41,126 nt of DNA from Bacteroidales bacterium (GTDB lineage: Bacteria; Bacteroidota; Bacteroidia; Bacteroidales; DTU049), in assembly GCA_018056215.1 (NCBI GenBank), contig JAGPGB010000001.1, positions 1 through 41,126 of the forward strand, read 5' to 3'. The notes below the pieces were generated by a model. That model was not told the DNA's origin. It saw only the letters and a list, made by a program, of their open reading frames with translations, and searched no databases. The translations under genes and the position numbers were made by a program. Shown in pieces: positions 3,388 through 41,126 of this stretch. The first letter of the stretch is position 1. Each line of letters starts with the position of its first letter.

Positions 3388-3798
3388 ATGAAAAAAATAA
3401 CATTAAGTTTATTAATTGTAATTTGTCAGTTATTTTTATTTGCTCAAGAATTTGACCCTAGGTTAGAGGATCATTTTGGCAAAGATAAATTGATTTATTG
3501 GCAAAAAAATTATCCAGATAGCCTAGGATATTATGAATTTATAATAGATAATGCTTTTCTAATAATGGATGAAAATGTAGCTATTACTAATCTCGGACAA
3601 AAAGAAGTCAATGAAATAGAAATACCGAATTTCGATGAAGCCATTAAAAATCATAAGCTAATAAATATTTTTTCTCTAGGTATAGAAATATTACCAGACA
3701 TGAACCAATATTTTAAAATCAAAAATGAACCATATTATTTGTATGTAAAATCAAGCAATTATTTATGGGAAAAATATTTAGCAGGTAAAAAAAATTAA
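3388..3798 (+). CDS. Secreted hypothetical protein (136 aa), cassette copy 1
   Basis: N-terminal signal peptide (MKKITLSLLIVICQLFLFAQ). It is a paralog of 6519..6929, with 84 of 116 mature residues identical by hand count. Only 4 nt separate it from the downstream large gene. Confidence 0.8.
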   Translation: MKKITLSLLIVICQLFLFAQEFDPRLEDHFGKDKLIYWQKNYPDSLGYYEFIIDNAFLIMDENVAITNLGQKEVNEIEIPNFDEAIKNHKLINIFSLGIEILPDMNQYFKIKNEPYYLYVKSSNYLWEKYLAGKKN

Positions 3799-3802
3799 TT
3801 CT

Positions 3803-6430: not shown

Positions 6431-6518
6431 ACTTCCATTTTATGATAATTTTTTTTAAATTTATTACATTATTTAAAAAATTATATTTAAATTTGCATTA
6501 AATATTAAATTATTAAAT

Positions 6519-6929
6519 ATGAAAAAATTATTATTATTTTTACTTATAAATATGATTACTCTTTTATCATATTCTCAACAATTTGATTCTAGATTAGAGA
6601 AACATTTTGGTAAAGATAAATTGATATTTTGGCAAAAAAATTATCCAGATAGTTTAGGATATTACCAATTTGTCCTAGATAATGCTGTATTGATAATGGA
6701 TGAGTCTGTTGTGAAACAAAGATTAGGTGGAGAGCAAGTAAGCGAGATAGAAATCACTAATTTCGATGAAGTTATTAAAAATCATAAACTTTTAGATATT
6801 TTTTCACTAGGCATAGAGATAAAACCCGATACTTATCAATATATTAAAGTAAAAAATGAACCATATTATTTATATGTAAAACCTGGCAGATATTTATGGA
6901 ATAAATATCAAGCTGGTAAACAAAATTAA
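6519..6929 (+). CDS. Secreted hypothetical protein (136 aa), cassette copy 2
   Basis: It has a signal peptide and is a paralog of 3388..3798. A TAAATTTG -7-like box lies at 6488-6495. Confidence 0.8.
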   Translation: MKKLLLFLLINMITLLSYSQQFDSRLEKHFGKDKLIFWQKNYPDSLGYYQFVLDNAVLIMDESVVKQRLGGEQVSEIEITNFDEVIKNHKLLDIFSLGIEIKPDTYQYIKVKNEPYYLYVKPGRYLWNKYQAGKQN

Positions 6930-6935
6930 TACATT

Positions 6936-12250: not shown

Positions 12251-15207
12251 AAATAATGATATACTTTATTATCTATATATAATTGTAAAATATAAATACC
12301 AGGTTGTAGTTCGCTTATTGGTATTACGATATAATCACCTACTTGAGTCATCTGAGCATTAATTTTATTACCTAATAAATCAAAAATTTCGATACTATTA
12401 ATATTATTATCAAATTTAATATTAATAAAATCGGTTGCTGGATTAGGATAAATATTTACTTGTGGGTTAAAATCATTTATATTATTTGGATTAATATAAA
12501 CAAAACCATCACTAAAAGTATTAATGGATAGACCAGCATTATTGATAGATTTGACTGTCAGATAATAATAATTGTAATTTATTAAACTAGTAGGATAAAA
12601 GGAATAGAAATTATTTATACCTACATTAGTCCATGGTAAAGTATTATCGTACCCGGGCACAGTACCTATGCACACTTTATAATTACTTATCCCACTATTA
12701 GGGTCATTAGCTTGTCCCCATTGTGCAGACATTGGTAGCATAAAAATAGTATCATAATCTTGGCCGATACCATCCCAGACAAATGAAGGAGGAAGAGGGG
12801 TGGTGTAATCTACAAAAACATCAAGCATAGCTAAATTAGATAGGTTATCTGCACTATCTTGTATTATACTTTTTATTTTACCTGCTGGTGAAGAGGGATT
12901 AATGCTTTCATATCTCAAATCTTTTGTGTTATTATTACCTACCCCAATAATATAGGCAGTATTAGGATAACGGGATCTATATATTTTTATTTGGTTAAAT
13001 TGTGCAATACAATTGCCAGTCCTAAAAGACACAAAACGACCATTAGTATTATAAGGTTGGCTATCTATCCATTTCCCTTTAAATAAATTGTTTACATAAA
13101 CCCATATGCCACCATCTATTCTATCATATATTACTTTTATATTATACCATTGGTTTAAATTTATTGTACAGGGGACCTCATAAGTTTTTGTAAAAGTATT
13201 ATTAGTTACTTTATAAAACTCTAAATTGTTAGTTTCTAACCTAAACCAAATAAAGTAACCATTACCTCTATTTTCTAATACCGAATCTGAAGAGAAAAAA
13301 TAAAGTCCAAAACGTTTATTTGTTACTGTATTTCCTAGTATTTTAGCTTCAAATTCATACAAATATCTATTTGAAAGTTCTTGATTTAAAAATGTATTTA
13401 TATGTGTATTATTAATGGTAGAATCTGTCTGCATTAAATAACCATTTTGTTGTATCCAGTTACCAGAGATTATATTCCATCGATTGTTTATAGAAGGAGC
13501 ATCAAAATTATCCGCTAAAAAGCCTCTACTCTCATTTGCTCCCCAATCTACGCCATCATATTCTATCACTTGGTAATAAGCTTTTTGTATACCACTCATG
13601 TCATCTGAATCATGAAAGGTAACTATGAAATCTTGTGTTTGCCAATGAGCAATAGAATCTATGAAAGTAATCGGCCTAACAGTATCACTAGGAGCTTGTT
13701 CACATTGATAAACTAGAGAAAAACCTTGATTATTAGTTGATGCATTAGAATGAAATTGTAATGTGAAAGCACCAGAGTTAGCTATCAAAGTACCTGGATT
13801 ATTAGATCCTGTAAAAGATCCTATCAAGGGTGCAGCAGTAGTGCTACCATTATATAATCTGAGATAATCATTACTGTTTTCTAAATTAAATTGACTAAAA
13901 TTAATTGTTATTGATTGACTATTAGGAGGTGCGATAGTATATGTATAATCTTCATTATCATAATAATTTCTAAGAGGTCCTCCCATATCGAATAAACTAT
14001 CAATGCAAGGATTCACCGAACAAGTAGTAAAATGTTCACTTATATTATCCCAATAATCTGTATATCCATCATCATTACCTAATGCCCATATGCCCATACC
14101 AGCAAGATTTCTTTGATTTATTAAATCCATTCGTCTTCCCATACTATATTTATCATCTATGAAGCATTGTCGCCATTCTGTTCCATTATTAAAAACATAA
14201 GCAGGCGTAAATGATGCTCTGTCCCAGACTTTATTTGACTGAGTATAATAACCTGTAGAGTTGTCTCTAACAAACTTGTAAGTACGTGAAACACAATTAG
14301 GCGGATTATTAACAGATGAAGGAATAGTATTAGATACTGTACCATATTCTCTACCATAATAAGGCAATGCAAGAATTAATTTATTGGCAGGACAGCCTTT
14401 ATTTAAATAATAATTAACTGATTTAGCAAGAGTATAATTATATGAAGTTACGAAGTTATATAAAGGATCTGTAGGACCTGCAGTAGTACTGCCACCATAA
14501 TAATAATCATATCCCATAATTATGAAATAATCCACTTTATCCTTCATAGCATTAATATCAAATATATCACTCCATTCTACTGCATTAATAGCTATTGTAA
14601 CCTCAGAACCTGGTATACGTGTATGAAAAGTATCTGCTAGCTCATTCATAAAATTAGTAAATGCAGTTTTGTGTGTAGAGCTCATACCTTCGAAATCTAT
14701 ATTCACACCATGCGCTCCTCTATTTATTACAAGTGTTACTATCTGATGCATAAAATTTCTCTGAGCAGTGATATTATTAAAAAAAGTAGTATGATTACTA
14801 AACAGTGTAGCACACAAGTGGACTTTAACACCTGCATTTAGTGCATCTGTAACAGACTGTATAGTGCTAAAACTGTGTGTAGACACGTAATTACCTGTAT
14901 TATAATCTACCTCATATGCGAAATAAGCAAAATGACTTAAAAGATTCCAATCATAATTTGCTTGTAAACCATTCTGCCAATAAGGATGCCATCCATAAAC
15001 TACTTTTGTTAAAGAACAATTACTTTTCGGTGTATGCTGAATATTAGCTCTATGAGTAGAATTATATTCTTGATAATCCTCTGCAGATAAGCCAGTAGAG
15101 TTATAATAATTTAACTCCTCCTCGTGAATTGATACCTGGCTGAATGATTCATTATTAATAGTAATAATCAAAATAATACCTAAAATCGAAAGAATATGTT
15201 TTTTCAT
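12235..15207 (-). CDS. Glycoside hydrolase family 18 (YaaH/chitinase-like) + CUB-like domain + type-A T9SS C-terminal sorting domain
   Basis: It has a signal peptide and the GH18 catalytic block HGVNIDFEG with the D-x-E retained. The CUB-like segment is YLRLYNGSTTAAPLIGSFTG...FSLVYQC. The C-terminus is Por_Secre_tail-like (NIYPNPATDFINIKF...GIYILQLYIDNKV). Confidence 0.8.
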   Translation of the reverse strand: MKKHILSILGIILIITINNESFSQVSIHEEELNYYNSTGLSAEDYQEYNSTHRANIQHTPKSNCSLTKVVYGWHPYWQNGLQANYDWNLLSHFAYFAYEVDYNTGNYVSTHSFSTIQSVTDALNAGVKVHLCATLFSNHTTFFNNITAQRNFMHQIVTLVINRGAHGVNIDFEGMSSTHKTAFTNFMNELADTFHTRIPGSEVTIAINAVEWSDIFDINAMKDKVDYFIIMGYDYYYGGSTTAGPTDPLYNFVTSYNYTLAKSVNYYLNKGCPANKLILALPYYGREYGTVSNTIPSSVNNPPNCVSRTYKFVRDNSTGYYTQSNKVWDRASFTPAYVFNNGTEWRQCFIDDKYSMGRRMDLINQRNLAGMGIWALGNDDGYTDYWDNISEHFTTCSVNPCIDSLFDMGGPLRNYYDNEDYTYTIAPPNSQSITINFSQFNLENSNDYLRLYNGSTTAAPLIGSFTGSNNPGTLIANSGAFTLQFHSNASTNNQGFSLVYQCEQAPSDTVRPITFIDSIAHWQTQDFIVTFHDSDDMSGIQKAYYQVIEYDGVDWGANESRGFLADNFDAPSINNRWNIISGNWIQQNGYLMQTDSTINNTHINTFLNQELSNRYLYEFEAKILGNTVTNKRFGLYFFSSDSVLENRGNGYFIWFRLETNNLEFYKVTNNTFTKTYEVPCTINLNQWYNIKVIYDRIDGGIWVYVNNLFKGKWIDSQPYNTNGRFVSFRTGNCIAQFNQIKIYRSRYPNTAYIIGVGNNNTKDLRYESINPSSPAGKIKSIIQDSADNLSNLAMLDVFVDYTTPLPPSFVWDGIGQDYDTIFMLPMSAQWGQANDPNSGISNYKVCIGTVPGYDNTLPWTNVGINNFYSFYPTSLINYNYYYLTVKSINNAGLSINTFSDGFVYINPNNINDFNPQVNIYPNPATDFINIKFDNNINSIEIFDLLGNKINAQMTQVGDYIVIPISELQPGIYILQLYIDNKVYHYLWEKL

Positions 15208-32942: not shown

Positions 32943-33326
32943 TTACTTTTGTTTTTGTTTTGGTCGTTTAGCACCATATTTACTTCTACCTTGTTTTCTT
33001 TTTTCTACGCCAGCAGTGTCTAATGCTCCACGTATGATATGATAACGTACACCTGGTAAATCTTTTACACGACCACCTCTTACTAAAACGATGCTATGTT
33101 CTTGAAGGTTATGACCTTCTCCGGGAATATATGCTATCACTTCATATCCATTTGTTAACCTTACTTTAGCTACCTTTCTCAAAGCTGAATTAGGTTTCTT
33201 AGGTGTAGTTGTGTAAACACGAGTACAAACACCTCTTCGTTGAGGACAATTAGCAAGAGCTGGACTCTTACTAGTCCTTCTCTTTGCTTTCCTCCCTTTT
33301 CTTATCAACTGTTGTATTGTTGGCAT
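32943..33326 (-). CDS. rpsL: 30S ribosomal protein S12
   Basis: [12 protein letters not shown]...[16 protein letters not shown]. Confidence 0.95.
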
Positions 33327-33653: not shown

Positions 33654-33818
33654 ATGAAAAAATTATTTTTAATTTCAATTTTGATTGTCATAACAATGAC
33701 AATGTATGGGCAAAAAGCAGCCCGACACACAAGCAAACGCTTCGCAAAAGTCAAAGAGCCATTTTTTCCTTCGCACGAAAAGAGTAAATTTACAAATACA
33801 AACTTTAAAATTAAATAG
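33654..33818 (+). CDS. Small ORF (54 aa): N-terminal hydrophobic signal/anchor helix plus a Lys/Arg-rich tail; not in the ORF track
   Basis: My hand translation gives MKKLFLISILIVITMTMYGQKAARHTSKRFAKVKEPFFPSHEKSKFTNTNFKIK*. The stop TAG at 33816-33818 is 2 nt before the ATG of the SPFH gene. Confidence 0.5.
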   Translation: MKKLFLISILIVITMTMYGQKAARHTSKRFAKVKEPFFPSHEKSKFTNTNFKIK

Positions 33819-33820
33819 TT

Positions 33821-35071
33821 ATGGCAATAATTGATCTAGTCCGTTGGGCACCTCAAGGAAATCAAACCATATATGCCTATAGGTTTCCTGAGACAAATCT
33901 TAGCACATACACACAGTTGATTGTGCAAGAATCACAAGAGGCAATTTTATTTTCAAAAGGTCAAATTGTAGGTAAATTTGGACCCGGTAAACATACACTT
34001 AATACGGAAAACCTGCCAATATTAAGAAGTTTATACGGACTCCCTTTTGGTGGTAAAAATCCATTTACAGCAGAAGTTTGGTTTGTAAACAAACTACAAC
34101 CTTATAATATTGATTGGTCAATTGACCGAATGGATATTCATGATGCTGATTACAATACAGGTATTCCGCTTGTTGCTAATGGTAGATATGGTTTAAAAAT
34201 TACGGACGCAGAAAGATTTTTGATAAAAATTGTTGGGACAAAAAATTCATTTGACCAAAATGATCTGACTGACCAGTTTTTTGGTGAATTTTCAACAAAA
34301 ACAAAGTCTACTGTTTTGCAATTCATGATTAATAATAGAATTGGATTAAAACAAATTTCCGCCCATTTAGACAGCATATCTGAACATTTAAAAACGGTAA
34401 TGCTGCCTTTTTGGGAAAATCTTGGTTTGGAACTTACGAAGTTCTATGTTACAAGTATAGAAGTTGATAGTTCAACCGAAGTTGGAAAACGTGTGTTAGA
34501 TGCAATTTCTCGCCAAAGTGCACAATCTATTGGTGGTTACACTTGGCAACAAGAACAAGCGTTTGGTGTAGCTAACAATGCAATAGACGGTTTTTCAAAC
34601 AGTAATTCAGGAATATTAGGAGCTGTTATTGCAACAAATATGATGGGAGGTTTAGGAGGTGCAGGCGGTGTTATGCAGCCACAATACAATCAACCAACAT
34701 TTGGCGGTACGAATCAGAATCAACAGGGCAATAATGTTCAACCAGTTAATCAAGTAAAAGAGGTTTTCTGTTCAAATTGTTCAAAGAAATTTCCTAGTAC
34801 ACATCGTTTTTGCCCTCATTGTGGAGACCCTTATGATGCTTGTCCTAAATGTGGAACGGATAACGATAAAAATGCAAAACGATGTGTAAGTTGTGGCACT
34901 CCACTTCAAACTGAAATGTCATTATGTACTAATTGTAACACACCTCTTGCTCCCGGTAGTTCATTTTGTGGAAATTGTGGTCAACAGCAAGCAGAAAATA
35001 AATGTACAAGATGTGGAACTGCATTAAATCCAACAATAAAGTTCTGTCCTAAATGTGGTCAAAAACGCTAA
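33821..35071 (+). CDS. SPFH/band-7 protein of the YdjI / COG4260 (virion-core-protein-like) type, with a G/Q/N-rich linker and four C-terminal zinc ribbons
   Basis: The N-terminal ~235 aa follow the YdjI-type pattern (IDLVRW...IVQESQEAILFSKGQIVG...AEVWFVNK...IPLVANGRYGLKITD). The linker runs aa ~240-315. Eight CxxC motifs lie at C317 to C412 (nt 34769-35056), paired with exactly 10 residues inside each ribbon. Confidence 0.75.
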   Translation: MAIIDLVRWAPQGNQTIYAYRFPETNLSTYTQLIVQESQEAILFSKGQIVGKFGPGKHTLNTENLPILRSLYGLPFGGKNPFTAEVWFVNKLQPYNIDWSIDRMDIHDADYNTGIPLVANGRYGLKITDAERFLIKIVGTKNSFDQNDLTDQFFGEFSTKTKSTVLQFMINNRIGLKQISAHLDSISEHLKTVMLPFWENLGLELTKFYVTSIEVDSSTEVGKRVLDAISRQSAQSIGGYTWQQEQAFGVANNAIDGFSNSNSGILGAVIATNMMGGLGGAGGVMQPQYNQPTFGGTNQNQQGNNVQPVNQVKEVFCSNCSKKFPSTHRFCPHCGDPYDACPKCGTDNDKNAKRCVSCGTPLQTEMSLCTNCNTPLAPGSSFCGNCGQQQAENKCTRCGTALNPTIKFCPKCGQKR

Positions 35072-35087
35072 CTAAAAAATTAAAGTT

Positions 35088-35798
35088 ATGAATGCTAAAA
35101 AAATATTTTCGTTATTGCTTGCACTCTTTGGAGAAGCACTGATTATTTTCTGTTTTTTACATTTTGGCAAAAATGTCCAGACAGAAATATTAACACTTAA
35201 TATTATTGTATCAACAATAATTTATTGTCTTGTATTTGTAGATGTAATTTTTCCATGGGTTAACCTAAAAGATAAATCACAGAAGCAAATTGGTTCTATT
35301 GGTTTAAGATGGTTTTTTACATTTTTCTATTTGATACTCGCTATAGGGGTTATGATATTTTTCAATACTGTAAAACCCATTCATTATACGAATCAAATTA
35401 TTATTCATGGTATTCTATTCTTTCTGCTATTGCTTGGTCTATTTATGGCTTTTTCATCATCCGACAAGGTAAGTGAAGTTTATTTTGAAGAAAAACAAAA
35501 CAGAGATAGGATTGATGAAATGAAGAAGGTTACAAAAGAACTTCAATTAAAATTAGATGCCATGAATAATATTCCAATAGAAATCATTAATCGTATTAAT
35601 GAACTACAGGAAAATTTACGATATCTATCGCCCAGCAATAATAGTGATGCATTGGTTCTTGAAAGCAAATTTGTTGAAGAAATTAGAATGTTAAATAATT
35701 GCTTTTCAGATAATCCATTAAACATTGAAATTGTCATCAGCAACATTAAAAATTGCGAAAGGACATACAAAGAACGCAAACAAATTTTCTCAAATTAA
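35088..35798 (+). CDS. Integral membrane protein (about four TM helices) with a ~110-aa helical/coiled-coil C-terminal domain; unknown family
   Basis: Hydrophobic segments lie near aa 6-26, 34-55, 71-92 and 104-124. The C-terminus is charged and heptad-like (NRDRIDEMKKVTKELQLKLDAMNN...). Confidence 0.7.
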   Translation: MNAKKIFSLLLALFGEALIIFCFLHFGKNVQTEILTLNIIVSTIIYCLVFVDVIFPWVNLKDKSQKQIGSIGLRWFFTFFYLILAIGVMIFFNTVKPIHYTNQIIIHGILFFLLLLGLFMAFSSSDKVSEVYFEEKQNRDRIDEMKKVTKELQLKLDAMNNIPIEIINRINELQENLRYLSPSNNSDALVLESKFVEEIRMLNNCFSDNPLNIEIVISNIKNCERTYKERKQIFSN

Positions 35799-35822
35799 TA
35801 TAAATCCAGTAAATCAAATCGT

Positions 35823-37994
35823 ATGAAAGGTAAAATTTTTCCGGAATCGAGTAATATCTACCAAGATCAGGCGAAGATATTATTCAACTATTACCAGTCA
35901 ATGGCTGAAAAAATAGTACAAGAAGAGGAACGCATTGAAAAAGAAATTGCGAAACTCGAAGAAGAAAAAAAGATGATAGAAGATATTCTTTCTTCTTTTT
36001 GGAACAGAATTAAATTATGGTTTCAAGGCAAACTAAAGAAAACGAGATTACAGGTTGAAACCCTAAACACAAGAATCGCTGAATTTCAGAAAATGCACAA
36101 AGAAATTTTCAGGGATTACAAAGTAAGTAAATTGGGCGTTGCTTATGTTCCAATTGCCGACCAAATTAAGTATGAAAATAAAAGCTTTATTGTTGATCAT
36201 ACGGGAATGGTTGAGGAATCAGAAGTTAAATTGCAATTGTCAAAACAAAACGACTTACTTATTCAAACAATTTCAGAGTTAGAAAAACTTTCGGGTGAAG
36301 CACCTATTGTTGAAAGTTCAAACGAAATTGAAGAAATTGAGACAGAACAGTATTCCAAATCAATGCAACAACTAAATCAACATGATTATTTTGGGAAACT
36401 TGAACGTTCGTTGAGAACAATTTCATATTGTATGGATGATTTAGATGTAACCTCGGTTCAATTACCACTAGTTGCGAATGAAAGTTCATATCTTAACTTT
36501 TTAAAGGAGTTTGCGACCAATGAAATTCCTGAAAATGCACCAATTTTTAAAGCATTTGACACACAAAAATACAATGAGCAGATTTCAAAATTTCAGGAAT
36601 TAAATAAACTAAAAGATTCTTTATCAAGACATACTGCACAGTTTGAAGATGTATTGAAAGGACTAATGATTACAATGGCAAATTCCGTTCAAGCAATATC
36701 CGCATTGAAAATTGCTTCAACAGATAAAATTGTTTTTGAATCAAATAAGGTACTTTATAAAATACTTAAATCTCCTTATAACCATTACTCTCCTGTTTTA
36801 GAGGCATCAGAGATTGAACGAATCAGAAATGAAAGTTTTAATTATAGTGAAGCGGTTTCTGATTATGTTCCATTCCAACTAAAAGATAGTTCAAAAGTCC
36901 GTTTCAATTTAGTTTCTGGTATGTGGACAGCCGAAGATGGTAGTACAACCAATTTCCCATTTGGCGTTCATCAAATCCATGAAGAAATTGTTGCTCCTAT
37001 CGTTCAAAACCTGATGAATGAAACAAGAATTGAACGTTTGAAAATATATAATCATATCAAAGACCAAAAAATAAGTTACCTTAACAAATGGCATCAGGAT
37101 ACGGAAGATTTTTATGGAAGAAACCGTGCAGAAAGTGCCGATTTGATAAATTTAATGAGAGCCAGTTTAAGAGATTATGTTGCAGCATACAATACATTAA
37201 CTTCTTTGAAGAAAACTGAGGATAGTATGGCACAATCTGGAGGGTCTTTAGATTCGACAGTTGTAACAGCAACTGAAAACTCAGCAGAAGTATTTGCAGC
37301 CTTTGAACTTCAATCAAAAGAATTCCAAAATGTTCTGCTTGACTTTGAGAACTACATGGAGCGTTTGAAAGAAGACATTGATATGAAAGCACAAAAGTTT
37401 GAGCACATTGATTATTACGATGCATTGCTACGGGATGGAATATCAAAAGAAATTGCTGTTGCTGCGGATGAAGTTCATGATTTTGACGCAAGAAGAAAAC
37501 CTCTTATTACAGTAAATCCATTATTTGCAAAAACTTCAGATTTACCTCCAACTCCGGATGTGGAAGATATTACCTTCGAGCACATTTCTTTGAATCTACC
37601 GAATATTGCAAAAAATACATTAAGAGAACTTGAAGATGATTTGGTAATTGAGCAACCTATTTCAGAAGAAAATGATGAAATTGAAAGCACGAATATTGAA
37701 TCTGATATTGAGAATAATGTTGAATCAGATGATAATATTATAGAAAATCAAGATGCTGACGATAATTCTGAATCAGAAGAAAAAGAAGATAACAATGATG
37801 CATCTGATGAAGATGAAGAAGATTTTTCTGATGAAGATGAAAACGATGATTCTGAAAGTGATAATGAAGATAGCGAAGATGAAGAAGATGAAGAAGATTT
37901 TTCTGATGAAGATGAAAACGATGATTCTGAAAGTGATAATGAAGATAGCGAAGATGAAGAAGATGAAGAAGATGAAGAAAATAAAAAGAATTAA
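35823..37994 (+). CDS. Large (723 aa) coiled-coil-rich hypothetical protein with a ~120-aa poly-Asp/Glu C-terminal tail; unknown family
   Basis: N-terminal coiled coil (EKIVQEEERIEKEIAKLEEEKKMIEDIL). I saw no Walker A or other catalytic motif on reading. The tail from about aa 600 is dominated by D/E/S/N and includes a perfect 25-aa duplication. Confidence 0.7.
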   Translation: MKGKIFPESSNIYQDQAKILFNYYQSMAEKIVQEEERIEKEIAKLEEEKKMIEDILSSFWNRIKLWFQGKLKKTRLQVETLNTRIAEFQKMHKEIFRDYKVSKLGVAYVPIADQIKYENKSFIVDHTGMVEESEVKLQLSKQNDLLIQTISELEKLSGEAPIVESSNEIEEIETEQYSKSMQQLNQHDYFGKLERSLRTISYCMDDLDVTSVQLPLVANESSYLNFLKEFATNEIPENAPIFKAFDTQKYNEQISKFQELNKLKDSLSRHTAQFEDVLKGLMITMANSVQAISALKIASTDKIVFESNKVLYKILKSPYNHYSPVLEASEIERIRNESFNYSEAVSDYVPFQLKDSSKVRFNLVSGMWTAEDGSTTNFPFGVHQIHEEIVAPIVQNLMNETRIERLKIYNHIKDQKISYLNKWHQDTEDFYGRNRAESADLINLMRASLRDYVAAYNTLTSLKKTEDSMAQSGGSLDSTVVTATENSAEVFAAFELQSKEFQNVLLDFENYMERLKEDIDMKAQKFEHIDYYDALLRDGISKEIAVAADEVHDFDARRKPLITVNPLFAKTSDLPPTPDVEDITFEHISLNLPNIAKNTLRELEDDLVIEQPISEENDEIESTNIESDIENNVESDDNIIENQDADDNSESEEKEDNNDASDEDEEDFSDEDENDDSESDNEDSEDEEDEEDFSDEDENDDSESDNEDSEDEEDEEDEENKKN
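37812..37973 (+). repeat. Perfect 75-bp tandem duplication (2 copies plus a 12-nt partial third) inside the acidic tail
   Basis: 37812-37886 and 37887-37961 are identical base for base (gatgaagaagatttttctgatgaagatgaaaacgatgattctgaaagtgataatgaagatagcgaagatgaagaa). 37962-37973 repeats the first 12 nt. Confidence 0.95.
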
Positions 37995-38014
37995 TCATTT
38001 AAACTGAAAGAATT

Positions 38015-38926
38015 ATGGCAACATTTAACTATACAGTAGATACAAAGCCAATGGCAGATGAAATGCGTAGTGTTTCACGACATGTGAACGCCACTACCGA
38101 TGCCGTTGTAGCTATGCAAACAGCAGTCATAATTGCTGAAGAAAAAGCAGCAGACCATGTTTGCAATAATGTAAACAAAGGATTTTATTCTTTGATTCGC
38201 TCCCAAATCTCGCAGAAAATGGCAAAATTACAAAGCGAGGTTGATTCTCATCTTATGCAATTGGTTCAGCAAAAAAATGCTTTACTAAGCATTAAAAACC
38301 GAATGCAAAAGGATTACAACATGATAGCCAGCAGGTACATCAAACTTTTTAACGGGTTAAACTCAAATTTGAAACAGAGAGTTTTTGAACTTGACAAGCC
38401 AACTATTGATTTTGCAGTTAAAGAGGTTGACAAAGTTTCTAACAGAACAAAATATTTAACAGCAACTATCCCGATAGCACAGTTGGAGTCTTTAGCAGCG
38501 AGCCAAAAAATTGTTGCATCAAATGTTAAGTATCGTGGTCTTAATGTAATCAAGTCAATGCGTAGTTTTCTTTTTGAAATGAATACGCAAAAGAAACTTA
38601 CAGACCAGATATTAATAAATGATGGCAGATATACCGAAACAGCAACAGTTTATATTCCAATTGTAATATGTGAATGCAATAGAGATAAAACTGGTACCGG
38701 AATTGAAATTTCTGTTTCTGATGTTGAGTTGGATAATATTTCAAAGTCTGCGATTAAGAATACTGCATTCGCAGAACTTAATCAAATTGAATGGCAAGCC
38801 AAAACTTCACCCAATACAGAAGTTAAAAGCGAGTTCAGTAAATTAGTATCATCTTCCTCAAAGTCGCAACGAGTAAAGGATATGGCTACGAAGTTGTTTC
38901 AGTCTAATAATTATCAAACCATTTAA
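38015..38926 (+). CDS. Hypothetical alpha-helical protein (303 aa), paralog A of an unknown family
   Basis: It shares a ~126-aa core with the next gene. The shared motifs are GF--LIRSQISQK and SRYIK-F--LN--L--R-FELDKPT. Confidence 0.7.
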   Translation: MATFNYTVDTKPMADEMRSVSRHVNATTDAVVAMQTAVIIAEEKAADHVCNNVNKGFYSLIRSQISQKMAKLQSEVDSHLMQLVQQKNALLSIKNRMQKDYNMIASRYIKLFNGLNSNLKQRVFELDKPTIDFAVKEVDKVSNRTKYLTATIPIAQLESLAASQKIVASNVKYRGLNVIKSMRSFLFEMNTQKKLTDQILINDGRYTETATVYIPIVICECNRDKTGTGIEISVSDVELDNISKSAIKNTAFAELNQIEWQAKTSPNTEVKSEFSKLVSSSSKSQRVKDMATKLFQSNNYQTI

Positions 38927-38937
38927 ATGTTAAAGAT

Positions 38938-40005
38938 ATGAGTTATTCAAGGAAATATCATGAAACAATAACAGTTAGAGGGTCAAAGACCGTAACTGTA
39001 TCATATCCAAAATCTGAAAGTGGTGGAAGTAAATCTGTTACTGTGGATTATGTTGAAAATGTACCTGTAGACGTTAATATCCATGTTGATACAGATCCAT
39101 TTGATGATAGTGTTGAAAGTTGCAATACAAATGTAAATTTGCTTACCGGTGCTGTGGTTGCAACGGAAGTAGCACAAATTGCTTCTATTGACAAAAATTC
39201 AAAGAAAGTAGCAAATACTATTATCGATGGCTTTTTTGGTTATATACGCTCAGAAATAAGCCAACAAATTGCTGAATTAACTCAGGGTATAGATTCTCAA
39301 TTGATGCACCTTAGAGAATTATCGAAAGCTGTAGTTGATAAGAAACGACAAATGGAAGGCGATTTTTTGCGAATTTCAAGCAGATACATAAAAACTTTTG
39401 ACGATCTGAATAATGAATTATCTAACCGTATTTTTGAACTCGATAAACCCACATTTGTTTTCAAAAAAGAATTAGATAATCAAAGTATCAGAACTACCAA
39501 CAATGATTTAGTTAACACTGTTGCAATTTTTGGCAAAGAGGGTAGCGAATTACATTCAAAAATAAGTGCCTCAATTGCAAAAAAACGTGCTTTAGATACA
39601 TTGAATAAAGCTAAAGTATTTTTATGGCAGCAGAAAAAGTTAAACAATACCATACAGCAAAGCATGTTGAATGAAAGCACGGAATCTCCGCAATATTCAC
39701 CTGTGTGTTTTATAGAAACAAAAGCGGATAAAAATCAAATATCTAAAGGATTACATACACCTTCATTCGTTTCTGCTTTGCAGGAAAACCAAACAAAAAA
39801 TGAGCTAATTGAGCAATTCAATGAATCAACAAATTCATGGAGTACAATAACAAAAGATTACACAGAAAATCTTAAATTGTACTTTAATTCTGAATTAAAC
39901 AAATCATACACAACTGCCGACCAACATTCGGTAAGGGTAAAGGAAATGATTCAAAAGATTGCCAATCTGGGTTCTATTCAAACAATAAGTGTTCAAAATC
40001 TTTAA
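38938..40005 (+). CDS. Hypothetical alpha-helical protein (355 aa), paralog B, with an extra beta-strand-like N-terminal ~45 aa
   Basis: Core aa 50-175 aligns without gaps to aa 8-133 of the 303-aa protein. By hand count 56 of 126 positions are identical. Confidence 0.7.
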   Translation: MSYSRKYHETITVRGSKTVTVSYPKSESGGSKSVTVDYVENVPVDVNIHVDTDPFDDSVESCNTNVNLLTGAVVATEVAQIASIDKNSKKVANTIIDGFFGYIRSEISQQIAELTQGIDSQLMHLRELSKAVVDKKRQMEGDFLRISSRYIKTFDDLNNELSNRIFELDKPTFVFKKELDNQSIRTTNNDLVNTVAIFGKEGSELHSKISASIAKKRALDTLNKAKVFLWQQKKLNNTIQQSMLNESTESPQYSPVCFIETKADKNQISKGLHTPSFVSALQENQTKNELIEQFNESTNSWSTITKDYTENLKLYFNSELNKSYTTADQHSVRVKEMIQKIANLGSIQTISVQNL

Positions 40006-40017
40006 AAAATAATAACA

Positions 40018-40992
40018 ATGAAAGAGTTAAAAGAAATTCGATTCAATGAAACCAATATCCAACTTAAGGACAATTTGGTTAAAGGCTCTATACTTCCTGA
40101 AAAAATTGCTGAGTTAAATAGAACTATCACAATACAGGGTAGTACCGTTATTGAGGGTCCTGTATATGCACATAAGTTAGAGATTCAACAAGGTGATTCA
40201 GAAATACATGGAGCAGTATTTACACAGCTTGAACTGTATGTAAATAGTGAAGCAAAAGGTAATGTTACCTTCAAAAAAAGTGTAGGTTCAGCCAATTCAA
40301 TTGTTTCAAGGGCTCAAAACTGCAATATTATGTTTCATAGTGACATAAATGCAAAGAGCGTAACTTTGTATAATGCTTTTGTTGCTGGTAGCATATATGC
40401 AGATGAAATAATACTTGAGAACAGTGTTGTAATTGGTGGCGTTTTTGCAACTCAAACAATTGATTTAACTAATTCAATTGTTGGCACATTTAACACTCCA
40501 TCTATTAAAGCGGCTCAAATGGTAAGTTTGCTTTTACCAAGTGCTTTTTCTATTGAAAAAATACTTGTTGTGCCAGGGACAAAATTCTACAATCTAAGCT
40601 TGGCTGATTTAGGCTCATTATACAAAGGGTTGCCACAGTCAATAAATTCTGGTAGAATTGAAATGAACATTGATGCTGATGAAGTTAAAACTACCTTAAC
40701 GAATGAAGAAACCCAAAAAACATTAAGAAGCTACACAGTCGTTGGAAAAGTTTTAGCAGCAGATTTGTTGGATATGGATAAATTTCAAAATCACTTTTTA
40801 TTGACTGCCGCAAGCTTAGGTACTCAATTACTGAAAACCTATGACTTGGGAGTCGATGCCAAAGGACAACCAGCAACTTTGACAATGGAGAAAATTAGAA
40901 ACTTCTTCTTTGATATTTTACATGGTAAAATTGAAGTTCAAGAAATTAACGGAAACTTTGATATTTCACAAATTACTGGAAAATTTAATTAA
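40018..40992 (+). CDS. Bactofilin-like (polymer-forming cytoskeletal, beta-helical repeat) protein with a non-repeat C-terminal domain
   Basis: aa ~35-165 show short periodic beta-helix-like repeats rich in G/V/I/A (TIQGSTVIEGPVYAHKLEIQQGDSEIHGAVFTQLELYVNSEAKGNVTFKKSVGS...VAGSIYADEIILENSVVIGGVFATQTIDLTNSIVG). The assignment is by eye only. Confidence 0.5.
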   Translation: MKELKEIRFNETNIQLKDNLVKGSILPEKIAELNRTITIQGSTVIEGPVYAHKLEIQQGDSEIHGAVFTQLELYVNSEAKGNVTFKKSVGSANSIVSRAQNCNIMFHSDINAKSVTLYNAFVAGSIYADEIILENSVVIGGVFATQTIDLTNSIVGTFNTPSIKAAQMVSLLLPSAFSIEKILVVPGTKFYNLSLADLGSLYKGLPQSINSGRIEMNIDADEVKTTLTNEETQKTLRSYTVVGKVLAADLLDMDKFQNHFLLTAASLGTQLLKTYDLGVDAKGQPATLTMEKIRNFFFDILHGKIEVQEINGNFDISQITGKFN

Positions 40993-40995
40993 GCA

Positions 40996-41126
40996 ATGCC
41001 GGACGTAAAGCAAGCACATTTGCAAACCGCAGAATGCCAACTCACAAACCAAAGTTTGCAAAAGAGCTTGCTTTGCCCACCCGGAAAAACAAAAAATCTT
41101 CCCTCTCTAAAAAATAAAACTTTGCC
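40996..41126 (+). CDS. Possible 5' end of an eighth operon gene (open frame runs off the window); could instead be non-coding structured sequence
   Basis: The ATG at 40996 is 3 nt after the preceding stop. The frame MPDVKQAHLQTAECQLTNQSLQKSLLCPPGKTKNLPSLKNKTL... has no stop up to nt 41126. The segment also contains a long imperfect inverted repeat. Confidence 0.25.
   Translation, partial: MPDVKQAHLQTAECQLTNQSLQKSLLCPPGKTKNLPSLKNKTL

What the first reader, a model, noticed from the sequence alone, without database searches (positions are those of the whole stretch)
33654..40992. Seven-gene operon of purely structural proteins (SPFH/Zn-ribbon, 4-TM, coiled-coil/poly-acidic, paralog pair, bactofilin-like): candidate undescribed membrane-associated system
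Seven same-strand ORFs are packed with gaps of 2, 16, 24, 20, 11 and 12 nt, and they diverge from the rpsL promoter. The ORFs are as follows.
- A 54-aa signal-anchor peptide with a basic tail.
- A YdjI/COG4260-type SPFH protein ending in four zinc ribbons.
- A 4-TM protein with a coiled-coil tail.
- A 723-aa coiled-coil protein with a ~120-aa Asp/Glu tail.
- Two paralogous helical proteins that I cannot assign to any family.
- A beta-helical bactofilin-like protein.
On reading all of them I found no P-loop, nuclease, protease, kinase, glycosyltransferase or other catalytic signature. The module therefore looks like scaffold plus filament plus membrane anchor.
The only precedent I know for this SPFH/Zn-ribbon type is the Bacillus subtilis pspA-ydjG-ydjH-ydjI membrane-stress operon, where YdjI helps bring PspA to the membrane. 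Here no PspA is recognisable, and novel families occupy its place.
Inferences:
- (a) It is a membrane repair or remodelling device analogous to Psp/ESCRT-III plus flotillin.
- (b) It is a membrane-acting abortive-infection or anti-phage module.
- (c) It is a cytoskeletal or compartment-organising device.
Basis: partly seen in the sequence, partly recalled or inferred. Interest (0 to 1): 0.9.

Follow-up and report, generated by a model that had tools for sequence, protein, structure and literature searches.

The report
Mobile six-gene membrane-scaffold cassette, function unknown
This is a real, strongly conserved six-gene operon of membrane-associated proteins with no recognisable enzymes, four of them matching no known family; it moves between Bacteroidota genomes as a giant integron-type gene cassette, sometimes beside restriction-modification cassettes, and probably builds a new kind of membrane-level protective machine.

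Summary
The ORFs and gaps are as described, but the unit has six genes (g2-g7, window 33821-40992), not seven. The 54-aa "g1" straddles the junction of the conserved block and its frame is not conserved. An apparent eighth ORF is a non-coding trailer containing a conserved hairpin.

g2 is a YdjI-type SPFH protein with four Zn ribbons. g3 has 4 TM segments plus a coiled coil. g4, g5/g6 and g7 match no Pfam, NCBIfam, PADLOC, PHROGs or PDB family. Only g7 gives weak sub-threshold bactofilin hits.

The AlphaFold model of g6 (pLDDT 86) shows an amphipathic β-hairpin, very long helices and an α/β domain, with no Foldseek match. No PspA is present.

The cassette is colinear in about 70 Bacteroidota loci, under strong purifying selection (dN/dS 0.02-0.17), with unrelated flanks. 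A four-gene core (g4-g7) also occurs alone.

In at least five independent loci, intact copies are bounded like integron cassettes. These sit in co-oriented arrays with NotI, type I R-M and Mrr-helicase cassettes, next to an IntI/XerA-like recombinase.

Function is unknown. My best guess is membrane-level defence (about 0.4). The main rival is membrane-stress repair.

The parts
33654..33818 (+). 'g1', a 54-aa ORF: not a gene. It is a chimera of local flank (33654-33719) and the cassette leader.
   Evidence: Homology to other cassette copies begins at about 33720-33722. The upstream sequences differ. The leader ORF frame is not conserved beyond about 40 codons, and it carries stops in L018.
33720..33820 (+). 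Conserved 5' leader of the cassette, truncated here. Intact cassettes start 285-287 nt before g2 with G|TTACAAGC. About 185 nt, including that core site, are missing in this genome. The promoter is probably here (TAAATTTA at 33785-33792 resembles the Bacteroidota -7 motif; inference only).
33821..35071 (+). g2: cytosolic SPFH (Band_7_1, YdjI/COG4260 type), a Gly/Gln-rich linker and four C-terminal zinc ribbons. Accessory subunit.
   Evidence: Pfam Band_7_1 at 126 bits (cut-off 24); DZR and Zn_Ribbon_1 in 4 stretches. No TM segment. dN/dS of the SPFH part is 0.03. Absent from the 4-gene form.
35088..35798 (+). g3: 4-TM inner-membrane protein with a cytoplasmic coiled-coil tail of about 110 aa (conserved RYLSPSNN and ERKQxFSN motifs). 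Accessory subunit, and the most variable gene.
   Evidence: Hydrophobic segments. Alignment. Only generic coiled-coil PDB matches. Identity 26-100% across loci.
35823..37994 (+). g4: 723-aa core protein. It has an N-terminal helix and a membrane-association segment at about residues 56-80. This segment is amphipathic (FWNRIKLWF) here, a 15-18 aa hydrophobic stretch in most orthologues, and a roughly 45-aa double hydrophobic stretch in L086. A highly conserved, mostly helical core of about 500 aa follows, then a 123-aa polyacidic tail.
   Evidence: No family found. More than 130 invariant columns. Membrane segment. Tail composition. AF2 gave only pLDDT 56. dN/dS of the core is 0.03.
38015..38926 (+). 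g5: 303-aa paralogue of g6 that lacks the N-terminal β-hairpin. It has a long helical part and a variable C-terminal domain.
   Evidence: 35% identity to g6, E=4e-41. No family found. Variability is concentrated at the C-terminus.
38938..40005 (+). g6: 355-aa core protein. It has an N-terminal amphipathic β-hairpin (residues 3-50, with a Gly-Gly turn), helices at 53-168, 170-188 and 192-242, and a variable C-terminal α/β domain (257-350).
   Evidence: AF2 pLDDT 86. The alternating hydrophobic pattern is conserved in 113 homologues. No Foldseek match at E<1e-3 in PDB or BFVD. 632 clusters at 50% identity.
40018..40992 (+). g7: 324-aa protein, the most conserved of the six (56-100% identity across the loci examined). 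It has an N-terminal bactofilin-like repeat region and a C-terminal domain with invariant LLLPSAF, LADLG and GKVLAxDLxDxDKFxNHFLL motifs.
   Evidence: Pfam Bactofilin hits in 22 of 32 orthologues, all below the cut-off. Alignment. No PDB sequence hit. dN/dS 0.02-0.05.
41007..41074 (.). Conserved hairpin just after the g7 stop (arms 41007-41027 and 41054-41074; 21 nt, 90% complementary, 26-nt loop). It lies inside the false 'g8' ORF that starts at 40996. It is probably a transcript-end or processing structure.
   Evidence: The arms are conserved in L001, L002, L008, L009, L011 and L014.
40993..41126 (+). Start of the non-coding 3' trailer of the cassette. In the matching contig L005 it continues to the inverse core site GCTTGTAAC (about 220 nt after the g7 stop, which would be window ~41212-41220, beyond the window end). 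A 124-nt attC-like palindrome and the next cassette (ABC-F) follow.

Best explanation
SHOWN:
- The locus is a self-contained six-gene operon, g2-g7.
- It is an accessory, horizontally mobile unit.
- In its intact form it is an integron-type gene cassette of about 7.7-7.8 kb. It begins with a G|TTAC... core site. It ends with the inverse core (...GTAAC), an imperfect palindrome of about 125-131 nt, and the next G|TT.
- It sits in co-oriented cassette arrays next to an IntI/XerA-like tyrosine recombinase.
- In this window it is a copy whose 5' core site is missing, lodged between rpsL and an ABC-F cassette.

INFERRED FROM THE ANATOMY: the six proteins build one assembly on the cytoplasmic face of the inner membrane.
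- The core is g4-g7.
- g4 is anchored by a short hydrophobic or amphipathic wedge and carries a disordered polyacidic 'tentacle' of about 120 aa. In rare variants this tail is tipped with a ribosomal bL12 C-terminal domain or with Zn ribbons.
- g5 and g6 are elongated helical paralogues with variable C-terminal domains. g6 has an amphipathic β-hairpin.
- g7 is a bactofilin-like, presumably polymerising protein.
- g2 (SPFH with Zn ribbons) docked on g3 (4 TM plus coiled coil) is an optional cage or regulator, by analogy with YdjI/SamI being recruited by the membrane proteins SamG-SamH.

MOST LIKELY FUNCTION (inference, about 0.4): a conflict or defence device that acts at the membrane without enzymes.
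- It forms a resting sub-membrane lattice.
- On a trigger such as phage infection or envelope perturbation, it either breaches the membrane through oligomerised g6 hairpins (an abortive-infection logic, as in gasdermins or RexB), or traps targets with its tails.
For: Operon and reality of the genes:
- Gaps are 11-24 nt, and no + strand terminator-like site lies inside the cassette.
- The genes are colinear in about 70 loci.
- dN/dS is 0.02-0.17.

New families:
- g4-g7 give no hits in Pfam, NCBIfam, PADLOC, PHROGs or PDB.
- The confident g6 model has no Foldseek match.

Membrane association:
- g3 has 4 TM segments.
- g4 has a hydrophobic or amphipathic segment.
- g2 is a Band_7_1 SPFH protein. 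On YdjI/SamI see PMC8581546 and bioRxiv 10.64898/2026.02.06.704340.
- g6 has an amphipathic hairpin.

Accessory and mobile:
- No conserved neighbour in 68 loci.
- Core-site pairs sit at fixed distances and covary: GTTACAAGC/GCTTGTAAC versus GTTACCAAC/GTTGGTAAC.
- Recombination sites of about 125-131 nt fold as long imperfect hairpins.
- There are chains of cassettes.
- IntI1-like recombinases lie next to the arrays.

Defence leaning:
- Array neighbours include a NotI R-M cassette, a 7.4-kb type I R-M cassette and a 6.9-kb Mrr-ResIII-helicase cassette.
- Integron cassettes are reported to be rich in anti-phage systems (bioRxiv 10.1101/2024.07.02.601686 and 10.1101/2024.07.02.601719).
- Distribution is patchy. 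The species-representative scan returned only 86 matching stretches among 185,579 species genomes.
- Variant cassettes are mosaic.
- The most variable parts are the C-terminal domains of g5 and g6.
Against: - There is no functional evidence of any kind.
- No PADLOC model matches.
- Across 91 non-redundant nearest neighbours, most are housekeeping genes and only about ten hit defence models.
- Cassette GC tracks host GC (r=0.82), which shows long residence in many lineages.
- No region shows dN/dS >1. The variable domains are merely less constrained.
- The β-hairpin is the lowest-confidence part of the g6 model, and its matches to pore stems are insignificant (E about 1).
- The array cargo also includes stress and resistance genes (AhpC/redoxin, MerB, RND efflux, β-lactamase-like). 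Array membership therefore does not single out defence.
- Hidden enzymatic activity in g4 or g7 cannot be excluded.
- The window's own copy lacks its 5' core site.
Confidence: 0.4

Rival explanations
1. It is a membrane-stress or repair module, a Psp/flotillin-like system without PspA. SPFH-ZnR (g2) and the 4-TM protein (g3) sense or mark damaged membrane. They recruit g4-g7, which stabilise or seal the bilayer from inside, protecting against detergents, antimicrobial peptides or pore-forming effectors.
For: - g2 is the same family and architecture as B. subtilis YdjI/SamI. That protein is recruited by membrane proteins and helps localise PspA (PMC8581546, bioRxiv 10.64898/2026.02.06.704340, PMC11237479).
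- All six proteins are membrane-associated or elongated scaffolds.
- Very strong purifying selection suits a structural machine.
- The same arrays carry stress cassettes such as AhpC/redoxin, MerB and efflux genes.
Against: - No PspA/ESCRT-III protein is present. hhalign of g5/g6 against E. coli PspA gives probability 0.3%, and Foldseek lists no PspA or Vipp1 match for the g6 model.
- No TPM (YdjH) or YdjG-like protein is present.
- The SPFH and 4-TM pair is dispensable.
- The module is rare and patchy rather than a lineage-wide housekeeping stress system.
Confidence: 0.25
2. It is a cytoskeletal or compartment-organising device. A bactofilin-like polymer (g7), with coiled-coil partners, organises a membrane domain or cell-shape feature. 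It has no role in conflict or stress.
For: - Weak but recurrent bactofilin similarity in 22 of 32 orthologues.
- Long helical rods.
- An SPFH microdomain scaffold.
- Extreme conservation of g7 and of the g4 core.
Against: - Morphogenetic systems are normally inherited vertically, with conserved synteny. This unit has unrelated flanks in 68 loci.
- It is bounded by recombination sites in cassette arrays.
- It is present in only a small minority of species.
- g7 does not reach the Pfam bactofilin threshold.
Confidence: 0.12
3. It is a membrane-tethered mimic of the ribosomal stalk. The long acidic tails of g4 capture translational GTPases (EF-Tu, EF-G, IF2) or other basic partners at the membrane. 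In some variants these tails end in a genuine bL12 C-terminal domain. The effect would be to silence or relocate translation, possibly as the effector step of a defence system.
For: - A complete Ribosomal_L12 C-terminal domain sits at the tip of the g4 tail in P0497 (E=9.5e-20) and P0469 (E=3.7e-15). It also sits on a C-terminal extension of g7 in P0203 (E=9e-7, above Pfam's cut-off). These are independent fusions to two different subunits.
- Established knowledge: the bL12 CTD is the docking site for translational GTPases.
- 198 of 247 unique g4 sequences have long acid-only tails.
Against: - Only 3 of roughly 370 homologues examined carry the domain.
- The window's tail has no such tip and no P-protein-like hydrophobic end.
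- Other tails end in Zn ribbons or are short.
- No interaction data exist.
Confidence: 0.1
4. It is a remnant of a prophage, conjugative element or secretion apparatus, that is, a structural module of a larger mobile element rather than an autonomous system.
For: - It is a multi-gene block of non-enzymatic proteins.
- The g6 hairpin loosely resembles ring- or barrel-forming hairpins.
- A phage-type integrase and a resolvase fragment lie upstream of the distant copy L086.
Against: - There are no meaningful PHROGs hits.
- g7 gives no tblastn match in 50,697 phage or 72,556 plasmid records, and none in IMG/VR.
- The same six genes always travel alone, with unrelated neighbours.
- No portal, terminase, tail or relaxase genes were identified among the neighbours examined.
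Confidence: 0.03

Closest known systems
Bacillus subtilis pspA-ydjGHI (pspA-samGHI) membrane-stress operon
   Same: g2 has the YdjI/SamI architecture: a cytosolic Band_7_1 SPFH domain with C-terminal zinc ribbons. It is encoded next to a multi-pass membrane protein that could recruit it, as SamG/SamH recruit SamI.
   Different: - There is no PspA/ESCRT-III protein, no TPM-domain YdjH and no YdjG-type protein.
- The SPFH and 4-TM pair is optional, and the conserved core is four unrelated proteins.
- The unit is a mobile cassette, not a chromosomal regulon member.
Bactofilins (Pfam PF04519; e.g. CcmA, BacA)
   Same: The N-terminal ~165 residues of g7 show the repetitive β-strand pattern. 22 of 32 orthologues give weak Bactofilin hits, and some sources annotate homologues as CcmA.
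   Different: - All scores are below Pfam's cut-off (best E=1.5e-4).
- g7 has an additional, very conserved C-terminal domain of about 160 aa and unknown type.
- Polymerisation is untested.
Integron gene cassettes and sedentary chromosomal integron arrays
   Same: - The unit starts at G|TT....
- An inverse core (...AAC), complementary to the cassette start, is followed by an imperfect palindrome of about 125-131 nt and the next G|TT.
- Cassettes are co-oriented and chained, and an IntI1-like tyrosine recombinase is adjacent.
- Cargo includes defence and resistance genes.
   Different: - These cassettes are very large and multi-gene (7.7 kb with six genes; 7.4 kb type I R-M). As I recall, classical cassettes are mostly about 1 kb with a single gene.
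- The core is GTTA plus a variable part, and fits GTTRRRY only partly.
- The recombinase scores just below the NCBIfam integron/XerA cut-offs, and in L009 and L004 it is on the same strand as the cassettes.
- The host phylum is one where IntegronFinder 2.0 reported hardly any complete integrons.
Membrane-anchored anti-phage complexes (Zorya ZorAB, Kiwa KwaAB, lambda RexAB)
   Same: This is an analogy only. All are multi-protein devices with a multi-pass membrane subunit plus long cytoplasmic helical parts, are horizontally mobile, and are sometimes next to R-M systems.
   Different: - No sequence relationship exists (PADLOC finds nothing).
- No motor, nuclease or DNA-binding effector is recognisable.
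- No phenotype is known.
β-hairpin pore formers acting from the cytoplasmic side (bacterial gasdermins) and β-PFT stems
   Same: g6 carries a hairpin of two strands of about 20 residues, with strictly alternating hydrophobic and Ser/Thr residues and a Gly-Gly turn. This pattern is conserved in 113 homologues.
   Different: - The rest of the protein (helices of 50-115 residues plus an α/β domain) resembles no pore former.
- Foldseek matches to pore stems have E about 1.
- The hairpin is the least confident part of the model.

Membership tests
SPFH / Band_7_1 (PF13421), YdjI-COG4260 type | Band_7_1 domain above Pfam's gathering score | tested here: met
   g2 residues 20-218 score 126.4 bits against a cut-off of 24, E=1.6e-36.
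SPFH / Band_7_1 (PF13421), YdjI-COG4260 type | C-terminal zinc ribbon(s), and no transmembrane segment (a cytosolic SPFH) | tested here: met
   DZR scores 88.8 bits, and Zn_Ribbon_1 scores 72.9 bits in 4 stretches. There is no hydrophobic segment.
pspA-ydjGHI (SamGHI) type operon | A PspA/IM30 (ESCRT-III) protein encoded in the operon | tested here: not met
   There is no PspA Pfam or NCBIfam hit in any of the six proteins. hhalign of the g5/g6 profile against E. coli PspA gives probability 0.3%. Foldseek lists no PspA or Vipp1 match for the g6 model.
pspA-ydjGHI (SamGHI) type operon | YdjH-type TPM-domain membrane protein and YdjG-type ZnR plus NTF2-like protein (as described in PMC11237479) | tested here: not met
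   No TPM_phosphatase or comparable hits occur in g3-g7. g3 is a 4-TM coiled-coil protein with no family.
Bactofilin (PF04519) | Bactofilin domain above Pfam's gathering score | tested here: not met
   The window's g7 scores 19.9 bits against a cut-off of 27.9. 22 of 32 orthologues hit weakly, best E=1.5e-4.
Bactofilin (PF04519) | Right-handed β-helical fold and polymerisation | not tested
Polymerisation needs an experiment.
Integron gene cassette | Unit bounded by G|TT core sites, with an inverse core (...AAC) complementary to the cassette start | tested here: met
   This is met for the intact copies L002, L003, L004, L008, L009, L013 and L058. The start lies 285-287 nt before g2 and the inverse core 217-225 nt after the g7 stop, and the 9-mers covary. 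In the window's own copy the 5' site is missing and the 3' site lies beyond the window end.
Integron gene cassette | attC: an imperfect palindrome of about 57-141 nt between the inverse core and the next core | tested here: met
   The sites span about 125-131 nt. They fold as terminal stems of 19-20 bp around a variable centre. No attC covariance model was available, so extrahelical bases were not checked.
Integron gene cassette | Adjacent integron integrase (IntI) | tested here: inconclusive
   IntI1-like recombinases lie next to arrays in L009, L004, L058 and L069/70/74 (tblastn E=1e-31 to 1e-14). NF040815 (XerA/integron integrase) scores 210-216 bits against a cut-off of 220. TIGR02249 scores 196-206 against 265. 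Both beat XerC and XerD. tblastn with IntI1 found no match in the 41-kb window.
Known anti-phage defence systems (PADLOC-DB 2.0) | Match to a defence-protein model | tested here: not met
   There are 0 families for all seven ORFs at E<=0.1.
Known anti-phage defence systems (PADLOC-DB 2.0) | Consistent location among defence genes | tested here: inconclusive
   R-M or helicase-nuclease cassettes are adjacent in the L002/L003 and L013 arrays. However, only about 10 of 91 nearest neighbours hit PADLOC models, and most are housekeeping genes.
Known anti-phage defence systems (PADLOC-DB 2.0) | Protection against phage | not testable with these tools
   This needs phage challenge of a host with and without the cassette.
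Prophage / phage structural module | Homology to phage protein families or presence in phage genomes | tested here: not met
   PHROGs gives only Zn-ribbon noise. g7 gives no tblastn match in the phage records and none in IMG/VR.

The most novel reading that the evidence does not exclude
This would be a previously unrecognised class of enzyme-free immune or protective machine.
- A sub-membrane lattice is built from a bactofilin-like polymer, a membrane-wedge protein with polyanionic 'stalk-mimic' tentacles, and two rod-like paralogues.
- On phage attack, it either punches β-hairpin pores from the cytoplasmic side or sequesters translational GTPases at the membrane.
- It is disseminated in Bacteroidota as giant multi-gene integron-type cassettes.
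Probability: 0.25. Interest if true: 0.9.

Novelty: categorically new. Interest (0 to 1): 0.78.

Why it matters
- Four of the six proteins define large families with no annotation. The g5/g6 family has 632 clusters at 50% identity, and g4 and g7 have thousands of 90% clusters. One of them has a confidently predicted fold with no PDB or BFVD neighbour.
- The proteins are as constrained as housekeeping genes, yet they travel as an accessory cassette. This combination usually marks a finely co-adapted machine with a strong, conditional benefit.
- If it is a defence or membrane-protection device, it would be a new mechanism with no nuclease, NTPase or signalling enzyme.
- The vehicle also matters. 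Arrays of very large multi-gene cassettes (type I R-M, Mrr-helicase and this module), with attC-like sites of about 128 nt and an IntI/XerA-like recombinase, would extend integron biology into Bacteroidota, including gut and oral genera such as Alistipes, Prevotella, Barnesiella and Capnocytophaga. They would also offer a guilt-by-association handle for finding further systems.

Tried and rejected
I recovered 14 divergent cluster representatives through exact look-ups. The model still reached only pLDDT 56, and its Foldseek hits are generic coiled coils. It is unusable.
- g5/g6 as a hidden PspA/ESCRT-III: rejected. g4 is also unrelated to g5/g6.
- Profile searches of PDB sequences with g3, g4, g5/g6 and g7 alignments found nothing beyond coiled-coil noise.
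- 'g8' (115-121 aa, called as a gene in public contigs): rejected as a gene. It is low-complexity. Homology between contexts ends inside it. It contains the hairpin and the inverse core site.
- Transposon model: I first read the GTTACAAGC/GCTTGTAAC ends as terminal inverted repeats. I rejected this because about 130 nt beyond the right repeat is shared by three unrelated contexts and ends at G|TT, and because neighbouring units show the same architecture.
- Empty-site search using the downstream ABC-F gene: it found no rpsL-ABC-F junction. Instead it showed that ABC-F is itself a mobile 1.89-kb cassette.
- Rfam: no family matches the leader or trailer.
- Plasmid, phage and IMG/VR carriage: none found.
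- Defence-island enrichment could not be quantified properly. The batch family scan reports only the 25 commonest families.
- No site-specific positive selection was detected with pairwise dN/dS.
- A link between loss of the g4 hydrophobic segment and presence of g2/g3 is suggestive, but no statistical test was run, so I make no claim.

Full report
1. THE OBSERVATION

The seven + strand ORFs and the inter-ORF gaps of 2, 16, 24, 20, 11 and 12 nt are exactly as stated. rpsL lies divergently at 32943-33326. No intrinsic-terminator-like site occurs on the + strand inside the block in the matching contig L005.

The genes are real. The same order, g2-g3-g4-g5-g6-g7, recurs in about 70 independent loci. 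Pairwise dN/dS is 0.02-0.17 for every gene region, except the g6 hairpin at 0.31.

Two corrections apply.
- 'g1' (54 aa) is not a gene. Nucleotide homology between this locus and copies in other contexts begins at window ~33720, inside that ORF. The corresponding leader ORF of intact copies shifts frame or carries stops after about 40 codons.
- The block does not stop at 40992. A further ORF opens at 40996 and runs off the window, and public contigs call it as a gene of 115-121 aa. It is a low-complexity reading of a non-coding trailer. This trailer contains a conserved hairpin with 21-nt arms (41007-41027 and 41054-41074). Homology between contexts ends inside it.

2. THE PROTEINS

g2:
- It is a Band_7_1 SPFH protein (126 bits) with four Zn-ribbon stretches and no TM segment. 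This is the YdjI/SamI architecture.

g3:
- It has four hydrophobic helices and a cytoplasmic tail of about 110 aa. The tail matches only generic coiled coils (IncA, cavin, GCN4).

g4:
- It has no family in Pfam, NCBIfam, PADLOC, PHROGs or PDB.
- It has more than 130 invariant columns across orthologues of 57-95% identity. It is therefore much more than a coiled coil.
- Between two N-terminal helices, most orthologues carry a 15-18-aa hydrophobic segment. The window variant has an amphipathic FWNRIKLWF stretch instead. A distant copy (L086) has a double hydrophobic stretch of about 45 aa. This argues for a membrane wedge or hairpin with both flanks in the cytoplasm (inference).
- The tail is 123 aa with 70 Asp/Glu. 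Tails are acid-only in 198 of 247 unique homologues.
- AlphaFold gave only pLDDT 56 for g4.

g5 and g6:
- They are paralogues (35% identity, E=4e-41).
- With a 140-sequence alignment, g6 folds at pLDDT 86. It has a long N-terminal β-hairpin (3-50), helices at 53-168, 170-188 and 192-242, and a C-terminal α/β domain.
- The hairpin has a conserved alternation of hydrophobic and Ser/Thr residues and a Gly-Gly turn in 113 homologues. g5 lacks it.
- Foldseek finds nothing at E<1e-3 in PDB or BFVD. Only the hairpin aligns, insignificantly, with β-barrel pore stems.
- hhalign against E. coli PspA gives probability 0.3%.

g7:
- It is the most conserved protein (56-100% identity).
- 22 of 32 orthologues give weak Pfam Bactofilin hits, all below the cut-off.
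- Its C-terminal half carries invariant motifs of unknown meaning.

3. DISTRIBUTION AND ARCHITECTURE

Family sizes:
- g6 has 817 clusters at 90% identity, g7 has 1651, and g4 has at least 2830.
- An exhaustive profile search finds 632 clusters at 50% identity for g5/g6.
- All carry 'hypothetical' or, occasionally, 'CcmA' names.

Taxonomy:
- All named hits among GTDB species representatives are Bacteroidota. They span Bacteroidales, Flavobacteriales, Chitinophagales, Sphingobacteriales, Cytophagales and Marinilabiliales. They include cultured Capnocytophaga sputigena and C. periodontitidis, Labilibaculum filiforme and Barnesiella.
- One distant full copy (L086) has 32-51% identity and 39% GC. 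It sits beside a choline-binding-repeat protein and downstream of a phage-type integrase and a resolvase fragment. It may lie outside the phylum, but this is unverified.

Architecture:
- Nine loci carry only g4-g7. That is the core, and g2-g3 are accessory.

Variability:
- Variability is concentrated in g3, the g4 membrane segment and tail, and the C-terminal domains of g5 and g6.

4. CONTEXT AND MOBILITY

Context:
- No flanking gene family is shared by more than 8 of 68 loci, and that one is the false g8.
- The 91 non-redundant nearest neighbours are mostly housekeeping genes. About ten hit PADLOC models.
- g7 has no match in plasmid, phage or IMG/VR collections.
- Cassette GC tracks host GC (r=0.82, range 30-60%), with a few outliers 9-15 points lower. 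Residence is therefore long, with occasional recent transfer.

Boundaries of intact copies:
- In L002, L003, L004, L008, L009, L013 and L058, the shared sequence begins exactly at G|TTACAAGC (GTTACCAAC in L013 and L058), 285-287 nt before g2.
- The reverse complement of that 9-mer lies 217-225 nt after the g7 stop.
- About 125-131 nt later, the shared sequence ends at G|TT, where a new unit starts.
- These intervening segments fold as 19-20-bp terminal stems around a variable centre.

Neighbouring units have the same construction, each with its own complementary 9-mer pair:
- a NotI R-M cassette (1.8 kb)
- a 220-aa protein
- a four-gene type I R-M cassette (7.4 kb)
- an Mrr-ResIII-helicase unit (6.9 kb)
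- β-lactamase-family and esterase genes
- in this genome, the ABC-F gene just beyond the window

These units are co-oriented and chained.

Recombinase:
- IntI1-like tyrosine recombinases lie next to the arrays. In L009 the recombinase is directly upstream of the six-gene cassette.
- They score highest on the XerA/integron-integrase and integron-integrase NCBIfam models, but just below the cut-offs.

This is the architecture of integron gene cassettes, with unusually large multi-gene cargo. IntegronFinder 2.0 reported almost no complete integrons in Bacteroidetes.

In the window itself:
- The copy has lost about 185 nt at its 5' end, including the core site.
- Its 3' inverse core and attC-like site lie just beyond the window end.
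- tblastn with IntI1 found no match in the 41-kb window.

5. HOW IT MOST LIKELY WORKS

What is shown:
- It is a mobile, self-contained six-gene operon.
- All products lack signal peptides.
- One is an integral membrane protein.
- Two have membrane-seeking elements.
- One is an SPFH scaffold.
- The rest are elongated or repeat proteins under very strong constraint.

What I infer:
- They co-assemble on the inner face of the cytoplasmic membrane.
- g7 acts as a polymer, g4 as a membrane wedge with an acidic tentacle, and g5/g6 as rods whose variable C-terminal domains could be the specificity elements.
- g2 docked on g3 is an optional SPFH cage or regulator, by analogy with SamI recruited by SamG/H.

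Function:
- I favour a conflict or defence role acting at the membrane, at about 0.4. The reasons are that the unit is an accessory cassette in arrays with R-M and helicase-nuclease cassettes, that integron cassettes are reported to be rich in anti-phage systems, that its distribution is patchy and mosaic, and that g6 carries a gasdermin- or β-PFT-like amphipathic hairpin.
- This remains inference. PADLOC finds nothing, and most neighbours are housekeeping genes. The arrays also carry stress and resistance cargo, and no positive selection is seen.
- The main rival is membrane repair or stress protection without PspA (0.25), followed by a cytoskeletal role (0.12).

A striking side observation feeds a fourth idea. 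In a few homologues the acidic g4 tail ends in a complete ribosomal bL12 C-terminal domain (E=9.5e-20 and 3.7e-15), and one g7 homologue carries the same domain (E=9e-7). Other g4 tails end in Zn ribbons like those of g2. Independent fusions of the ribosome's GTPase-recruiting domain to two subunits hint that the tails capture translation factors. However, only 3 of about 370 homologues have this domain.

6. COMPARISON WITH WHAT IS KNOWN, AND NOVELTY

- The only firm family membership is g2 in Band_7_1.
- The pspA-ydjGHI operon type fails on PspA, YdjH and YdjG.
- Bactofilin membership fails Pfam's threshold.
- No known defence system or phage module matches.
- Three full-text searches linking SPFH or bactofilin to zinc-ribbon proteins, anti-phage defence or defence islands returned no paper describing such a cassette.

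I therefore rate the system as lying outside known kinds. Its vehicle is of a known kind (integron-type cassette), in an unusual form and phylum.

7. VERDICT

- The Psp analogy is weak.
- The defence idea is plausible but unproven.
- Interest is 0.78.

Noticed in passing
L002 52-16657; L003 1378-12038; L008 4663-17129; L013 4598-20206; L009 3364-13219: There are integron-like arrays in Bacteroidota. Units are co-oriented, and each starts with G|TTAnnnnn and ends with the reverse-complementary 9-mer, an imperfect palindrome of about 125-131 nt, and the next G|TT. Cargo includes very large multi-gene cassettes (type I R-M at 7.4 kb, Mrr-ResIII-helicase at 6.9 kb, NotI R-M), plus MerB, AhpC/redoxin, Macro-domain, β-lactamase-family and esterase genes. 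An IntI1/XerA-like recombinase is adjacent and scores just below the NCBIfam cut-offs.
   Followed up: partly
Just beyond the window end; L005 8120-10007 (also L006 7914-9800; L088-L102): The 531-aa ABC-F ATPase gene downstream of the cassette is itself a discrete 1.89-kb cassette (GTTATCGGC ... GCCGATAAC plus a 130-nt site). It is 99.5-100% identical in more than 15 metagenome contigs with unrelated flanks, and is present as a tandem repeat in L088. This suggests a circular or tandem intermediate.
   Followed up: partly
Homologues P0497 (res 687-753), P0469 (737-803), P0203 (355-419); corresponds to the ends of window g4 (37994) and g7 (40992): In a few homologues a complete ribosomal protein bL12 (L7/L12) C-terminal domain is fused to the tip of the acidic g4 tail. 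In one homologue it is fused to a C-terminal extension of g7 (Pfam PF00542, E=9.5e-20, 3.7e-15 and 9e-7). Other g4 tails end in Zn ribbons like those of g2 (P0495, P0560). One g7 has a Pro-rich PPPLP tail (P0146).
   Followed up: partly
window 41007-41074: There is a hairpin directly after the g7 stop codon (21-nt arms, 90% complementary, 26-nt loop). Its arms are conserved in L001, L002, L008, L009, L011 and L014, but its loop differs. It matches no Rfam family and is not followed by a T-run.
   Followed up: partly
L086 5184-12059: This is a distant full six-gene copy (32-51% identity, 39% GC). A phage-type integrase and a resolvase fragment lie upstream, and a choline-binding-repeat protein lies downstream. 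Its g4 has a double hydrophobic segment of about 45 aa. It may lie outside Bacteroidota, but its taxonomy could not be checked.
   Followed up: partly
window 33821-40992 versus L001, L008 and L009: Identities between close cassette variants are mosaic. For example, g6 is 99% identical to L001 but 86% to L008, while g3 is 99% identical to L008 but 90% to L001. This indicates recombination between variants.
   Followed up: no
L008 4530-4671: Upstream of the L008 cassette lies a solo copy of the cassette's 3' trailer. It is joined head-to-tail to the cassette start (…GCTTGTAAC-ATGC-GTTACAAGC…), as expected for a tandem or circle junction.
   Followed up: no
window 3388-9542: Two tandem copies of a gene pair lie on the + strand: 136 aa plus 875 aa, then 136 aa plus 868 aa. 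They were not examined.
   Followed up: no
L004 2398-3237; L014 about 12450-13110; one further locus: An Exo_endo_phos (DNase I-like EEP) gene is the immediate neighbour of the cassette in three non-redundant loci. It is the only family that recurs that often among nearest neighbours.
   Followed up: no
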